NCBI GenBank assembly: GCA_964016885.1
Contig: OZ024751.1
Span: 41,974,001 to 42,038,000 of the forward strand
Direction of reading: 5' to 3'
DNA: 64,000 nucleotides
DNA from: Eledone cirrhosa
Lineage: Eukaryota
Below the pieces are notes generated by a model. That model was not told the origin of the DNA. It ran no database searches and saw only the letters and a list, made by a program, of their open reading frames with translations. Of the stretch, positions 1 through 13,860 are shown piece after piece (the first letter of the stretch is position 1; each line of letters begins with the position of its first letter). The position numbers and the translations under genes were made by a program.

Positions 1-505
1 ATACTGAGAAAGGTGCACAAAATATGTGATGTAACCCAGGAAGTTGGTGATACTTAAAGAAATCTGCTCTCCGCTCTCGGGAGGAGTGAAAAACGTGAGC
101 GACGCGATTAAGTGAAATAGTAAATACGGCACAAAAATAGTTAACACATAGTAAATTGATTTCCGCTTGACAGATAAAATAAACATTATATTGTTAGAGA
201 TGTTTTTCTTATTGCATGTCAGGAAATTAAAATTCGGTTTATGCCAGTTCTGACGGCTATCCGCTTTTTTGTTATCTAATTTCTTGAAATCCTTGGTACT
301 TATGGCATCCTTCTCCATGTTCGGAATCAGATTTTGAAGAAGGGCCGTGCTTTTTATGTCCAGTGCGCATGTCTGGTTATCGAATGGAAATGATGAGAAG
401 TTGAGAATACAGAACGTTACAAACTTGTGGTAGATGATAGCTGACATATTGCCATCGTAGTTTACTTTCACTGTGTCTACTTTAATATTATGTGGTGATT
501 CAGCA
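1..505 (-). CDS. nAChR-like Cys-loop ligand-gated ion channel subunit, exon 5 (Cys-loop, loops B/C, M1, M2); continues beyond window start
   Basis: Open frame 504->1: AESPHNIKVDTVKVNYDGNMSAIIYHKFVTF-CILNFSSFPFDNQTC (C-x13-C with FPFD)-...ILSVKRKSIYYVLTIFVPYLLFHLIASLTFFTPPESGEQISLSITNFLGYITYFVHLSQY. AG acceptor at 507-506 is phase-compatible with exon 4 (AG+T=Ser, giving 'NSAE'). Confidence 0.93.
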
Positions 506-514
506 CTTTTTCAT

Positions 515-869
515 GAGGTTCAAGTTCAAACATATAGATGAGGTCCAAACATATAGATGAGGTCCAAACATATAGATGAGGTCCAAACATATAGATGAGG
601 TTCAAACATATAGATGAGGTCCAAACATATAGATGAGGTCCAAACATATAGATGAGGTTCAAACATATAGATGAGGTCCAAACATATAGATGAGGTCCAA
701 ACATATAGATGAGGTTCAAACATATAGATGAGGTCCAAACATATAGATGAGGTCCAAACATATAGATGAGGTTCAAACATATAGATGAGGTCCAAACATA
801 TAGTTGAGGTCCAAACATATAGATGAGGTTCAAACATATAGATGAGGTCCAAACATATAGATGAGGTCC
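515..869. repeat. 19-bp minisatellite (GAGGTCCAAACATATAGAT)n, ~18 copies, with a 57-bp higher-order period
   Basis: Unit directly visible; the 'ttc' variant recurs about every third unit. Confidence 0.95.
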
Positions 870-1385
870 AGATCGGTGGTGAAGGTGGTTGGTAAGGGGA
901 TGAAAAAAAGAAAAATATACAAAATTAAGAATAGAAGAAAATGTAATCACATGCACATACATACATACAGACAGATACACACATATATATATATATATAT
1001 ATATATATATACATACACATACATAAATACATACATACGCACAGACATATATATATACATACATACATACACATATATACACACAGACATATATATATAT
1101 ATATATATATGCATACATACATACACATACATACACACAGACATATACATATATATATATGTATGTGCCCATCAGTGTGCAATGCATGTGTGCGTATATG
1201 TATGTGTGTGTCGGCACGTTTATATCTATAGACATCAAAAGGTATGCAAATTTGTGTATATTTGTGTTGCACCATAGAACATGTGTGTTTACGTATGTCA
1301 TTGTGTTTATATGTGGATAGAGATGTATGTAGGATGTATGCTGATGTAGGTATGTATGTTGACGTGTGTATGTTGTGGGTTCGTC

Positions 1386-2335
1386 TTAGGGAGAAGTGTT
1401 TAGACGGGGTCCGTATTTGTTAATAAAGTGATATTCCTTGCTGATGCGCTGGGTGTGGGTGGCATTATCTTTAAATTTGTAGAGGGGAAAGATTCTGAAG
1501 TTGGGATGATTTTGGGCGGCACAGGTATCAATGTGTTCACTCAGTGGTATTTTCCTGTATTCCCGTATTTTAATTTGGGATCTATGGACAGTTATGCGTT
1601 GGCGGAGGCTGTTTTTGGTCTGGCCTATGTATTGTTCTCGACAACCTGAGCAAGTTAATACATATATTAGATTTTCTGATGCGCATGTGAAATTGTGTTT
1701 TACTATAAAACGTTGTCCTTCTTTGAAATAGAATTCCGAACCCTCTATTAGATTGATGCATATGCCACAGTTGGGTCTATCGCATTTTTTTACTGTGGGT
1801 TTCGTTGTTGTGGTTGGCAGTACTTTGGCATGTGTTAGGATGTTTTTCATTGACTTAGATTGTCTTTTGCTCTTTATGATATCGTGTGTTCGTAGGATTT
1901 GGTTCATTCTATGGTCCTTTTTTAACACAGGGATGTTCTGGAGGATGGTGTCAAAGGCCTCATTGTTGAGGGGTTGTGTGTGGAGATGTATGGAAGAGCT
2001 TTTAGTTTCGGTTGATTTACTTTAGGGTGTCTAAGGTCCTGGGTACTGAGTTTTAGGGCACGTTGGATTCCATTGTCAATTAGTGATGCAGGGTAGTCCC
2101 TGCCTATGAGTGTGTCCTTTAGTTCTTGTAGCCGTAAGTAACAGGTGTTTTTATTGGAGACTATAGTACAGATTCTCTTGGCTAAGTTGTAGGGAATATT
2201 AATTTTAACGTGTCTAGGGTGGCAAGAGTTGAAAGGAAGATATTGCTTGGAGTCTGTGGGCTTGTAGTATATGTCTGTTTCTATTTTTTTGTTATGAATC
2301 TTAATGAGGATGTCGAGGAAGGGGAGTTGTTGACA
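1386..2335 (-). mobile_element. Penelope-like retroelement 3' fragment (RT thumb + GIY-YIG endonuclease), frameshifted
   Basis: Minus strand reads LPFLDILIK...TDIYYKPTDSKQYLPFNSCHPRHVKINIPY (PLE RT C-terminus). ORF 1386-1928 has CxxxxCxxC, 'NLIYVLTCSGCREQYIGQT...LRQRITVH' and terminal 'E..FI..Y.P.LN'. Confidence 0.92.
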
Positions 2336-3312
2336 CCTTTTATTATTAAGGTTTTTGATGTTCTATTGAGAGAATCGTTTTTACTGAAAATATCGAATAA
2401 TGTACACCATTTTTACCAGTATCACAAAAATACTGGTCCACCCACACACACACATACACACATATACACACACACACATATATATACACACACACATACA
2501 CACGCGTACACTAACATACAAAGAGACATATACACACACACACACACACTTCTCCGTATAAAACAAGAGCTGAAAAATATCTTTTAACATGTTAAAATAT
2601 CCCCCACACACGTACAGACACATTCCTACTGACCGATCCCTCTACCACGAATTACTCTGCTACACACACACACACACACTTGTCTTAATAGGCACCTGAA
2701 CTGTTGACCTGTCAACAAACTGCAATTCACACACACATCCCTACTAACCATTATCACAACAACGAACCTCTTTACTACTACTACTACACACACACACATA
2801 TTTGTCTTAAAAGACTTATTTTTTAGTGACTTCTCAATCAGCCGAGGCAAACCTACATTTGGCGCAAAATCAATTTGTAACATTCACATGACCTCTACCG
2901 ACCAATCAAAATTGTTTTGACCACAAGAATTTTTGCAACACGAATTGGCGCGAAACTTATTTTAATACATCTGGAGCCACTTTTTTCACATAAAAACAGG
3001 TAGAATTTCCAAAACTAATCAGATTAGAGCAAACATCACGGGCGCTCTATCTCAAAATTATTTTTGAAAAGCATTAGAAATGCGCAACCGGTAAAAACTT
3101 AAAACCAAAACTGAATACTAACCAATACTATTACTAATTTTTACTTATTCCTAATTAAACTATTTTTCACTGGAACAATTCGTCAGCACTTTCTTTTCCT
3201 TTTACCTATATATATATATATATATATATATATATATATATATATATATATATACATACATATACACACACAGGTACAATATAGATAGTGATATGAATTA
3301 ATTATACGAAAC

Positions 3313-3422
3313 CTGTTGGCCACAACTAAATATGGTGTCCAGATGTCCTTGGAAGGGACCCTCATCTCTTTGATACCTCTGTGATTTTCAGGGTCCCAAC
3401 TCATGTCGCTGTCTCTCCATTC
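3313..3422 (-). CDS. nAChR-like subunit exon 4 (110 nt)
   Basis: cag|EWRDSDMSWDPENHRGIKEMRVPSKDIWTPYLVVAN-AG|gt. Matches the W.D..L.W.P / IW.PD motifs and the conserved 110-nt nAChR exon. Confidence 0.93.
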
Positions 3423-11823: not shown

Positions 11824-11917
11824 GATAGATAGATAGATAGATAGATAGATAGATAGATAGATAGATAGATAGATAGATAGATAGATAGATAGATAGATAG
11901 ATATACACTTTACTCAC

Positions 11918-12057
11918 TATGTCAAAACTGTCCAGTATTTTCAATCTTATTTTAATATCAATCCGGTCGCTGTTATCTTCCAAAGGAGCGATATAAGGAT
12001 TAAACCTCGATTTCAAATGTAGTGTTAGATTTAGCTTGGAATTGAAATATGAGTCAC
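11918..12057 (-). CDS. nAChR-like subunit exon 2 (140 nt)
   Basis: poly-T tract ...ttacag|(G)DSYFNSKLNLTLHLKSRFNPYIAPLEDNSDRIDIKIRLKILDSFDI|gtgagt. Phase 1/0; N-terminal helix followed by a 'YN...RP'-like segment. Confidence 0.9.
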
Positions 12058-12881
12058 CTGTAACAGAAAAAAAAAAAAAAAAAAAAAAAAAATATTTTTA
12101 CTGCGAAATATATACAATTAGCTTCTGTTTCCAACCTGCCATTTCTTGATGCAATTGACCTGTTAGGAAACCTCATGTGTGTCATATCCGCAGGTTTGTG
12201 GGGTCATTCGAGGGCTCACAACCGCTCATCACAAAGTTGAATGGATGGCCCTATTCTGTAAAGAAGTGGCAAGTTATAATATATATATATATGTGTGTGT
12301 ATGTATATATATATATATATATATATATATATATATATATATATATATATATATATATATATATATATATATATATATATATATATATATATATATATAT
12401 ATATATATATATATATATATATATATATATATCTATATATATATGCATATATAAATATATATATATATATAAATAAGTATATATATATATATATATATAT
12501 ATATAAATAAATATATATATATATATATATATATATATAAATAAATATATATATATATATATATATATATAAATAAATAAATATATATATATATATATAT
12601 ATATATATATATATATATATATATCACCTTAGAGAAATAACATACGTTAGATAGCTTGATGTATATGCATATATATATATGTATATATACATATATATAT
12701 ATATTATTAGAATATATATATATATATATATATATATATATATATATGTAGATAAATCTACCAAGAGTTTACGGTAGTGTCCAATCCGTATGGAGAACTC
12801 AATGTATTCCGGATATCATGGAAAGAAGAGATGTAATGAAAAACCACTTTCGGTGAAAGATAAACGGTATACAGAGTCAAG

Positions 12882-13539
12882 ATAAAATATTAAACAAATA
12901 ATGAATAAACAATTCCTTATATTAAACAAAAAAAGTTCATTATTTAACGATCGTTTCTAGGATATATATGTGTTAGAATTGGTATGCATATTCAACAGAT
13001 CTATGTACAAAATTATACAAAATTATACAAATTATCAAGATTAAATATACATACCAAACACATATATACGCCGTCTTCAGAAATAATGAAGTATATTTAT
13101 TGATAATAACAACAATTCAAAATTTCAGGTCCGTTTGGGAACAAAAATTGACCAATGAAAACACAAAGGGTTAAATGCAGTTCGGTGTGAACACACCGAA
13201 CTGCAAAGGGTTAAATGCAGTTCGGTGTGAACACACCGAACTGCATTTAACCCTTTGTGTTTTCATTGGTCAATTTTTGTTCCCAAACGGACCTGAAATT
13301 TTGAATTGTTGTTATTATCAATAAATATACTTCATTATTTCTGAAGACGGCGTATATATGTGTTTGGTATGTATATTTAATCTTGATAATTTGTATAATT
13401 TTGTATAATTTTGTACATAGATCTGTTGAATATGCATACCAATTCTAACACATATATATCCTAGAAACGATCGTTAAATAATGAACTTTTTTTGTTTAAT
13501 ATAAGGAATTGTTTATTCATTATTTGTTTAATATTTTAT
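12882..13539. repeat. ~660-bp near-perfect palindrome with a hammerhead fold in each arm (Penelope pseudo-LTR-like)
   Basis: Arms are reverse complements; the centre carries a duplicated hairpin TGCAGTTCGGTGTGAACACACCGAACTGCA. Confidence 0.92.
13331..13485 (+). ncRNA. Type-I hammerhead ribozyme motif with extended stem II (mirror copy on minus strand at 12936-13090)
   Basis: TTCATTATTT-CTGAAGA-[long paired stem II]-GAAA-CGATCG-TT-AAATAATGAA; stem I is a perfect 10 bp. Confidence 0.7.
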
Positions 13540-13805
13540 ATATATATATATATATATATATATATATATATATATATATATATATATATATATATATTTA
13601 TTTATATATATATATATATTTATATATGCATATATATATATATATATATACTTATTTATATATATATATATATTTATATATGCATATATATATAGATAGA
13701 TAGATAGATAGATAGATAGATAGATAGATAGATAGATAGATAGATAGATAGATAGATAGATAGATATATAGATATATATATATATATATATATATATGCA
13801 CTCAC

Positions 13806-13860
13806 CAGATCCCTGTACTGTCCACAATAAAGATAGTAATAATATATTCTGTGGTAACAT
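13806..13860 (-). CDS. nAChR-like subunit exon 1 (signal peptide, 55 nt coding)
   Basis: ATG in aaaATG context; [19 protein letters not shown]|gtgag is a hydrophobic signal peptide with a phase-1 donor matching exon 2. Confidence 0.87.

What the first reader, a model, noticed from the sequence alone, without database searches (positions are those of the whole stretch)
1..13860. Intact, intron-containing nAChR-like subunit that has lost the whole acetylcholine-binding cage (orphan or chemosensory candidate)
Seen: five phase-compatible exons (55/140/45/110/>505 nt) give an open frame with signal peptide, C-x13-C loop, M1 and M2; most of it is absent or fragmentary in the ORF track. Loop A reads WTPYLVVANS (no Tyr93 equivalent), loop B KSTALL (no Trp149) and loop D INGILY (no Trp55). 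Loop C is short with one unpaired Cys (FLTCNKKNISN) instead of YxCC...Y. Established: the first four exon sizes are those of alpha7-type nAChR genes, and loss of the aromatic cage is the hallmark of cephalopod atypical nAChRs / chemotactile receptors (CRs), which as I recall are described as largely intronless tandem genes. Inference: this could be an intron-retaining sister lineage of CRs, or an independently derived non-ACh-gated channel.
Basis: partly seen in the sequence, partly recalled or inferred. Interest (0 to 1): 0.72.

Follow-up and report, generated by a model that had tools for sequence, protein, structure and literature searches.

The report
Octopod orphan channel lacking acetylcholine pocket
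This octopus-type genome holds an intact six-exon gene, one of three copies of a fast-changing octopod family, for a nicotinic-receptor-like channel subunit that has lost every acetylcholine-binding residue; it likely responds to some other signal and likely arose separately from the known taste-by-touch receptors.

Summary
A minus-strand gene has exons of 55/140/45/110/545/350 nt, all introns GT-AG, and encodes an unbroken 414-aa Cys-loop subunit. Its last exon (M3, M4) lies 2 kb beyond the window. All cage positions (W55, Y93, W149, Y190, Y198, vicinal Cys pair) are lost. Two paralogues exist in this genome, and homologues in Octopus sinensis and O. bimaculoides; nothing else exceeds 32% identity. 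The pore keeps E-1' and L9', and selection is purifying (dN/dS about 0.2). It is not a chemotactile receptor (CR): CRs form a separate intronless array 18 Mb away. CR sisterhood appears in 1 of 1000 bootstrap trees, though the AU test does not reject it. The exon sizes are generic, not alpha7-type. New here: the lone loop-C Cys is matched by a conserved C-terminal Cys in all four full-length members, suggesting a loop-C-to-tail disulfide. The RIC-3 chaperone gene lies 30 kb upstream. Splicing, tissue and ligand are not shown. Verdict: a real orphan octopod channel lineage, a new variant of a known kind.

The parts
13806..13860 (-). Exon 1 (55 nt), ATG and signal peptide
   Evidence: near-identical exon 1 in tandem paralogue B
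11918..12057 (-). Exon 2 (140 nt), N-terminal helix and beta1
   Evidence: 140 nt in paralogues B and C
4176..4220 (-). Exon 3 (45 nt), loop D; W55 position is Ile77 (codon 4187-4185)
3313..3422 (-). Exon 4 (110 nt), loop A; D89 position is Tyr111, Y93 position is Ala115 (codon 3320-3318)
   Evidence: (PF02931 E 6e-9)
1..505 (-). Exon 5 (first 505 of 545 nt): Cys loop C149-C163 (411-367), loop B with Thr170 at W149 (348-346), short loop C with the single Cys214 (216-214), M1, and M2 with E-1' (69-67) and L9' (39-37). The rest of exon 5 and exon 6 (M3, M4, tail Cys412, stop) lie beyond the window start at G000:C11:41974000-41973961 and 41971963-41971614
508..1225 (-). AG-free zone of 718 nt before the exon 5 acceptor. 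It holds a displaced pyrimidine tract (about 870-950) and an 18-copy 19-mer array (527-870); a distant branch point is inferred
   Evidence: AG-free zones of 289 and 444 nt at the same intron in paralogues B and C
5974..11297 (-). LINE-type retrotransposon in intron 2 (reverse transcriptase and zf-RVT frames, interrupted by stops)
44008..48765 (-). Neighbouring RIC-3 chaperone gene on the same strand, 30 kb upstream. Exons seen: 47819-47676 (membrane motif), about 45175-44931 (coiled coil), about 44451-44008 (last, read by eye); model incomplete
   Evidence: (PF15361 E 1.8e-10)

Best explanation
The gene encodes an intact Cys-loop channel subunit of a small, fast-evolving octopod family that has lost all acetylcholine-binding residues; it likely forms a cation channel opened by some other signal, likely arose independently of the chemotactile receptors, and is predicted to have its shortened loop C tied by a disulfide to its own C-terminal tail. 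Shown: the six-exon open frame, the Cys loop, four membrane segments, loss of both the principal and complementary cage residues, retention of E-1' and L9' in M2, three paralogues, Octopus homologues, and purifying selection. Inferred: pentamer formation (alone or with its paralogues), cation selectivity, the Cys214-Cys412 bond and the non-ACh ligand. A chemosensory role is plausible from the rate of change and the recent duplication, but no tissue data support it yet. If the bond exists, loop C cannot cap a small agonist in the usual way, and the tail would couple the pocket directly to M4 or fill it, as the tail of human ZAC does.
For: Intact 414-aa model with GT-AG introns, mirrored in paralogues B and C. 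The O. sinensis homologue P0001 is 41% identical over the full length. It folds at pLDDT 86 onto nAChR subunits (Z 27, rmsd about 4 A over 354 residues). There are no aromatic residues at the 5 cage positions in 4 of 4 full-length members. M2 reads E-1'...L9' in all five members. dN/dS is 0.22 (0.12-0.32) for A-C overall and 0.17 in M1-M3. The family is one clade (100/100) on a stem of 1.6 changes per column. Among 1.84 billion representatives only the O. bimaculoides fragment is close (84%); the other 149 of the best 150 are 21-32%. Independence from CRs: exact sisterhood in 1 of 1000 bootstrap trees. Without two long rows the family joins a group holding the canonical ACh subunits (98/97), while CRs sit with bivalve divergent subunits. 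Analysed one at a time, the two attach at different places. Disulfide: gene A has exactly four extracellular Cys (149, 163, 214, 412). A Cys 8-12 residues after the beta9 Trp occurs only in the 5 family rows of 73. The tail motif IP[DN][VI]C is in 4 of 4 full-length members. The model's tail aligns out to residue 405 with the C-termini of muscle beta subunits. Precedents: the epsilon C190-C470 bond (bioRxiv 10.1101/2024.12.13.624530, passages) and the ZAC C-tail (PMC11707272, passages).
Against: No splice junction was shown. The tree position is unstable: with the long rows P0039 and P0110 included, family + CRs + those two rows group in 727 of 1000 bootstrap trees, and the AU test does not reject CR sisterhood (p 0.28; p 0.18). 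FastTree on 157 rows put family + P0039 beside the CRs (0.857). No squid or cuttlefish sequence was in any tree. The disulfide was not measured, since the fold tool returns no coordinates, and the fold is of the homologue, not of gene A. dN/dS between A and B is 0.72 (0.52-1.03), which fits relaxed constraint as well as adaptation, and A-C dS is near saturation (1.7). K0' is Gln and 13' is Thr, so the pore is not standard. No ligand or current data exist.
Confidence: 0.5

Rival explanations
1. The family is the intron-keeping sister (or parent) lineage from which the intronless chemotactile receptors were retrocopied, and works as a contact chemoreceptor like them.
For: Total cage loss is shared with 7 of 11 CR rows. 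Genes A and B lie on the same contig as the CR array. The AU test does not reject sisterhood (p 0.28 and 0.18). Family + CRs + P0039 + P0110 group in 727 of 1000 bootstrap trees. FastTree grouping 0.857.
Against: Exact sisterhood in 1 of 1000 trees. The grouping vanishes when two long rows are removed. Identity to CRs is 17-22%, against 26-30% to the best non-CR rows. The family lacks the loop-A Cys found in 10 of 11 CR rows. The array is 18 Mb away, and paralogue C is on another contig.
Confidence: 0.17
2. It is an accessory (fifth-position) subunit that co-assembles with ordinary alpha subunits and tunes ACh-gated channels without binding any ligand itself; the tail disulfide would be only a folding aid, as in the muscle epsilon subunit.
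For: Loss of both binding faces suits a subunit that touches no agonist site (inference). M1-M3 is the best conserved part (dN/dS 0.14-0.17). Without long rows the family groups near canonical ACh subunits. The neighbouring RIC-3 gene encodes an assembly chaperone.
Against: Vertebrate accessory subunits stay close in sequence to their partners (recalled), whereas this family is at most 32% identical to anything outside octopods. The O. sinensis homologue and the O. bimaculoides fragment are only 80-84% identical, and the family has duplicated twice in this genome.
Confidence: 0.2
3. The family is functional, but this copy (gene A) is a recent tandem duplicate under relaxed constraint that is poorly spliced or silent.
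For: dN/dS for A-B is 0.72 with an interval reaching 1.03. The exon 5 acceptor lacks an adjacent pyrimidine tract. Intron 2 carries a LINE insertion.
Against: There is no stop or frameshift in 414 codons despite 28% protein divergence from B. The odd acceptor is shared by B and C. X4 contigs identical to gene A lie inside exon 5.
Confidence: 0.1

Closest known systems
Octopus sinensis XP_036369744.1 ('acetylcholine receptor subunit beta-like', P0001) and O. bimaculoides XP_014780908.1 ('alpha-9-like', 172-aa fragment, P0005)
   Same: Same clade (100/100); 41% identity full length; same cage losses, loop-C Cys and GEQISLSITNFL M2; tail Cys in P0001.
   Different: Automatic names only; no paper held cites these accessions (main texts). 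This genome has three copies; only one homologue per Octopus species was found.
Cephalopod chemotactile receptors (CRT1, PDB 8EIS/9E6B; CRB1, 8EIZ)
   Same: Cys-loop subunit with no ACh cage, short loop C, short M3-M4 loop and E-1'.
   Different: CRs are intronless (PMC11526382, passages) and arrayed at C11:23.6-23.93 Mb here. Identity is only 17-22%. The CR loop-A Cys is absent from this family, and the loop-C Cys is absent from all 11 CR rows.
Expanded divergent lophotrochozoan nAChR-like subunits (Jiao et al., PMC6896357; MolluscaGenes clades, PMC13174522; Alvinella Alpo4, PMC10338036)
   Same: Orphan subunits with altered binding residues in the same superfamily.
   Different: Most expanded bivalve copies are intronless or intron-poor and often keep W149. 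This family keeps five introns, loses all five aromatics, and has no member outside octopods in the databases searched. Which MolluscaGenes clade holds it could not be checked.
Human zinc-activated channel ZAC (PMC11707272) and muscle nAChR epsilon subunit (bioRxiv 10.1101/2024.12.13.624530)
   Same: A C-terminal tail Cys bonded back to the channel. ZAC also has a short loop C and a degenerate pocket filled by the tail. The ESM Atlas top feature hit was a ZACN cluster (0.97), nearly tied with other Cys-loop clusters.
   Different: ZAC's tail Cys bonds to the M2-M3 loop and epsilon's to the beta9 strand; here the predicted partner is at the tip of loop C. No orthology is implied.

Membership tests
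Cys-loop (nAChR-like) pentameric ligand-gated channel subunits | C-x13-C loop and Neur_chan_LBD domain | tested here: met
   C149-C163; PF02931 above cut-off for exons 4 and 5 and for P0001
Cys-loop (nAChR-like) pentameric ligand-gated channel subunits | Four membrane helices M1-M4 | tested here: met
   Model of homologue P0001 shows four helices. In gene A, M1, M3 and M4 pass the hydropathy cut and M2 is identified by alignment
Cys-loop (nAChR-like) pentameric ligand-gated channel subunits | Assembles as a pentamer and conducts ions | not testable with these tools
   Needs expression and recording
Alpha-type ACh-binding nAChR subunit | Vicinal Cys pair with Y93, W149, Y190, Y198 | tested here: not met
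   A115, T170, no Tyr in loop C, single Cys214
Conventional non-alpha (complementary) nAChR subunit | Loop D W55 | tested here: not met
   Ile77; Ile in 4 of 4 full-length members
Conventional non-alpha (complementary) nAChR subunit | Conserved orthologue across molluscs | tested here: not met
   Only two Octopus sequences are close; database coverage of squids and cuttlefish is unknown
Alpha7-type nAChR genes | Extra introns unique to the alpha7 subfamily (nine introns in all) | tested here: not met
   Five introns; loop A to M2-M3 is one 545-nt exon, as in 10 of 13 other own-genome subunits examined (PMC6354393 passages)
Cephalopod chemotactile receptors (CRs) | Loss of the ACh aromatic cage | tested here: met
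   0 of 5 cage aromatics
Cephalopod chemotactile receptors (CRs) | Intronless coding region | tested here: not met
   Six exons
Cephalopod chemotactile receptors (CRs) | Falls inside the CR clade | tested here: not met
   The CR clade (100/100) excludes it, and at SH-aLRT 100; only own-genome CRs were in the trees
Cephalopod chemotactile receptors (CRs) | Sister group to the CR clade | tested here: inconclusive
   1 of 1000 bootstrap trees, but AU p 0.28 and 0.18
Cephalopod chemotactile receptors (CRs) | Lies in the CR tandem array | tested here: not met
   Array at C11:23.6-23.93 Mb, gene at C11:41.97-41.99 Mb
Cephalopod chemotactile receptors (CRs) | Sucker-epithelium expression and gating by poorly soluble compounds | not testable with these tools
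   No tissue-labelled RNA data and no assay
Tail-tethered Cys-loop subunits (ZAC, muscle epsilon) | Disulfide from a C-terminal tail Cys back to the channel body | tested here: inconclusive
   Two clade-specific extracellular Cys are conserved together; no coordinates or chemistry were obtained

The most novel reading that the evidence does not exclude
Octopods evolved a second family of non-acetylcholine sensory channels, independent of the chemotactile receptors and still carrying introns, in which a shortened loop C is disulfide-stapled to the subunit's own C-terminal tail, so that the tail guards the old agonist pocket and an external chemical opens the channel by displacing it.
Probability: 0.2. 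Interest if true: 0.8.

Novelty: new variant of a known kind. Interest (0 to 1): 0.5.

Why it matters
Chemotactile receptors are the one worked-out case of a neurotransmitter receptor turned into an environmental sensor in cephalopods. A second octopod lineage with complete cage loss would show that the switch can happen more than once and without retroposition. If it proves to be the CR sister after all, it supplies the intron-containing relative needed to reconstruct CR origin. Either way it gives three cloneable orphan channels and a sharp structural test (C214-C412), which would add a third form of tail tethering beside ZAC and the muscle epsilon subunit. Divergent, cage-altered nAChR-like genes are common in molluscs, which caps the surprise.

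Tried and rejected
RNA: no RNA holder was listed (4 runs, 1 study, type not on record). Laying X4 and X1 on exons 3-6 listed no junction among the 15 of 1056 joints shown. X4 alone at 98% likeness showed no exon 4-5 joint and no cover of exon 4. Exon 1 of paralogue C was not found in 100 kb. The Argonauta divergent subunit P0110 has no close orthologue in this genome (best 30%). The careful tree on 73 rows did not finish; the quick tree stands in. Positive selection on exons 2-3 between A and B (dN/dS 2.3) has an interval of 0.9-9.9 and patchy A/B homogenisation, so it is not claimed. The 'alpha7-type' reading was rejected. Kang 2023, Allard 2023 (Nature and Curr Biol), van Giesen 2020 and Albertin 2015 are not held, and the MolluscaGenes supplement could not be read. 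These may already show this clade in their trees. Paper searches found no description of it in the main texts held. Earlier scan findings held nothing on this gene. The last printed line is a placeholder, not a count, and is not used.
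Full report
Observation. The gene lies on the minus strand. Exons 1-5 are at window 13860-13806, 12057-11918, 4220-4176, 3422-3313 and 505-1, every intron GT-AG and in phase. Neighbouring genome stretches show that exon 5 is 545 nt. A sixth exon of 350 nt (M3, a short intracellular loop, M4, tail, stop) follows 2 kb on, at G000:C11:41971963-41971614. 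Exons 4 and 5 hit PF02931 on their own.

Paralogues and homologues. Searching the genome with exon 5 gave 37 matches, three of them close: the gene itself (A), a tandem copy 34 kb downstream (B, 75%) and a copy on contig C27 (C, 57%). B has all six exons and an open frame; C has exons 2-6 open, and its exon 1 was not found. Outside the genome, three word-index searches and one exhaustive search found only O. sinensis XP_036369744 (P0001; 41% to A over the full length) and a 172-aa O. bimaculoides fragment, XP_014780908. The other 149 of the best 150 representatives are 21-32% identical to P0001. That the host is an octopod is inferred from these homologues and from its CR array. How well squids and cuttlefish are covered in these databases is unknown, so 'octopod-restricted' is provisional.

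The pocket. In an alignment of 73 subunits, the positions of W55, Y93, W149, Y190 and Y198 hold no aromatic residue in A, B, C or P0001, and D89 is lost too. Both faces of the ACh site are therefore gone. Among the 63 rows that cover loops A, B and D, total loss also occurs in 7 of 11 CR rows and in 3 others: one from Mya, one from Argonauta and one unnamed. Cage loss recurs and is not by itself a CR mark. MolluscaGenes makes the same point for other clades (PMC13174522, passages and section 3.4). Jiao et al. report only 13 of 33 oyster alpha subunits with intact principal sites (PMC6896357, parts 1-2 of 6 and passages).

The pore and selection. M2 keeps E-1' and L9' in all five members, with Gln at 0' and Thr at 13'. 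A GEK-type motif is read as cation-selective, so cation flow is inferred. Nei-Gojobori dN/dS is 0.22 (0.12-0.32) for A-C and 0.18 for B-C, lowest in M1-M3 (0.14-0.17); dS is near saturation, so these values are rough. For A-B it is 0.72 (0.52-1.03). P0001 folds at pLDDT 86 and matches nAChR subunits at Z about 27.

Gene structure is not alpha7-specific. Three introns are common to all vertebrate nAChR genes, the one splitting exon 3 is common to all but alpha9/10, and alpha7 has four of its own (PMC6354393, passages). In this genome, 10 of 13 other intron-containing subunits examined have one 530-581 nt exon with the same phase-2 start and phase-1 end as exon 5. For the other three my script found a wrong donor or none.

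Relation to chemotactile receptors. The CR array is at C11:23.6-23.93 Mb: 24 matches in open frames of 383-431 aa, one matching CRT1 at E 4e-166. CRs are described as intronless (PMC11526382, passages). Gene A is 18 Mb away, and identity to CRs is 17-22% against 26-30% to the best other rows. From 193 domains I aligned 73 rows and built careful trees on 37 and 35 of them; no squid CR was available as a row. The family is always one clade on a very long stem, and CRs are another.

Tree results for and against. FastTree on 157 rows put family + P0039 (Patella) beside the CRs at 0.857. In the 37-row tree the exact family + CR clade occurs in 1 of 1000 bootstrap trees, while family + CR + P0039 + P0110 occurs in 727, and the AU test does not reject sisterhood (p 0.28). 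After removing those two long rows, the family joins two annelid or unnamed rows and the canonical ACh subunits at 98/97, and the CRs go with bivalve divergent subunits. The eight commonest neighbour sets, 992 of 1000 trees, hold no CR; AU p is 0.18. Run one at a time, the two lineages attach at different places. The alternative grouping costs only 0.45 log units in the 37-row set (p 0.48). This pattern suggests long-branch attraction, so an independent origin is favoured, but it is not proven.

The 'unpaired' cysteine. Gene A has four extracellular cysteines: the Cys-loop pair, C214 and C412, two residues from the end. C214 lies 17 residues before the pre-M1 Arg, where the first vicinal Cys of alpha subunits lies (16-17), but only 10 after the beta9 Trp instead of 16. 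In the model it sits at the start of the turn of a shortened hairpin. It occurs only in the 5 family rows of 73, and all four full-length members end in IP[DN][VI]C. The model's tail superposes out to residue 405 on the C-termini of muscle beta subunits. A tail-to-beta9 disulfide is known in the muscle epsilon subunit and is needed for its expression (bioRxiv 10.1101/2024.12.13.624530, passages). In ZAC a disulfide-anchored tail fills a degenerate pocket beside a short loop C, and deleting it gives basal current (PMC11707272, passages). A C214-C412 bond is therefore predicted; it was not measured, and an inter-subunit bond is possible.

Expression. This is unresolved. In run X4 (88 Mb of contigs, type not on record), contigs lie inside exon 5 and exon 6. 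One matches exon 5 without mismatch, stops exactly at the predicted acceptor and carries 80 further letters, whereas contigs of run X1 cross exon borders into introns. This is a weak hint that the odd acceptor is used. That acceptor follows an AG-free zone of 718 nt, with 289 and 444 nt in B and C, against 15-187 nt at the other 12 acceptors; a distant branch point is inferred.

Neighbourhood. The genome's best RIC-3 match (the only one below E 1e-4 of three listed) is in this window, 30 kb upstream on the same strand. RIC-3 is the nAChR assembly chaperone (recalled). Paralogue C has no RIC-3 match beside it, and P0001 lies on a 21-Mb contig similar in size to C27, so the adjacency may be recent and accidental.

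What is known and verdict. Orphan lophotrochozoan nAChR-like channels are known (Alpo4, PMC10338036, passages), and CR workers have mined cephalopod AChR-like genes widely (bioRxiv 10.1101/2025.10.28.685082, passages). Six searches of the held library found no description of this clade. The main CR papers and the MolluscaGenes supplement could not be read and may contain it. Verdict: a real, intact orphan Cys-loop subunit of a distinct octopod lineage. It most likely works as a non-ACh cation channel, it resembles CRs in pocket loss but is not a CR, and it carries a testable loop-C-to-tail disulfide. Interest 0.5.

Noticed in passing
window 48765-44008, minus strand: RIC-3 chaperone gene, the genome's best PF15361 match, 30 kb upstream of the receptor gene on the same strand; exon model incomplete.
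   Followed up: partly
window 12882-13539 (intron 1): Near-perfect foldback: two 324-nt arms, 99% complementary, 10 nt apart. It could form long double-stranded pre-mRNA, be a young foldback element, or be an assembly artefact.
   Followed up: no
window 508-1225 and the same intron of paralogues B and C: Very long AG-free zones (718, 289, 444 nt) before the exon 5 acceptor, built of different sequence in C (poly-A and CAC runs), suggesting a conserved distant branch point.
   Followed up: partly
window 5974-11297, minus strand: LINE-type element with RVT_1 and zf-RVT frames and a 607-codon upstream frame without Pfam match, in intron 2.
   Followed up: partly
window 1389-2021, minus strand: GIY-YIG endonuclease fragment (Penelope-like, inferred) in intron 4; further RVT_1 fragments at 24129-25256.
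   Followed up: no
G000:C11:23.6-23.93 Mb (L010-L029, L057-L083) and C23:18.65 Mb (L082): CR array of at least 24 intronless frames with a recent expansion of CRT-like copies, plus one CR outside the array on C23.
   Followed up: partly
G000:C11:41963246-41970026 (L031, L032): Tandem array of about 311-nt units at 99.9% identity between genes A and B.
   Followed up: no
genes A and B, G000:C11:41.94-41.99 Mb: Patchy similarity: exon 1, the start of exon 5 and the M3-M4 loop are nearly identical (dS 0.04-0.09), while M4 and the tail differ strongly (dS 0.49), suggesting gene conversion.
   Followed up: partly
P0110 (Argonauta hians GAB1607972.1): Another octopod nAChR-like subunit with total cage loss on a long branch, with no close orthologue in this genome.
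   Followed up: partly
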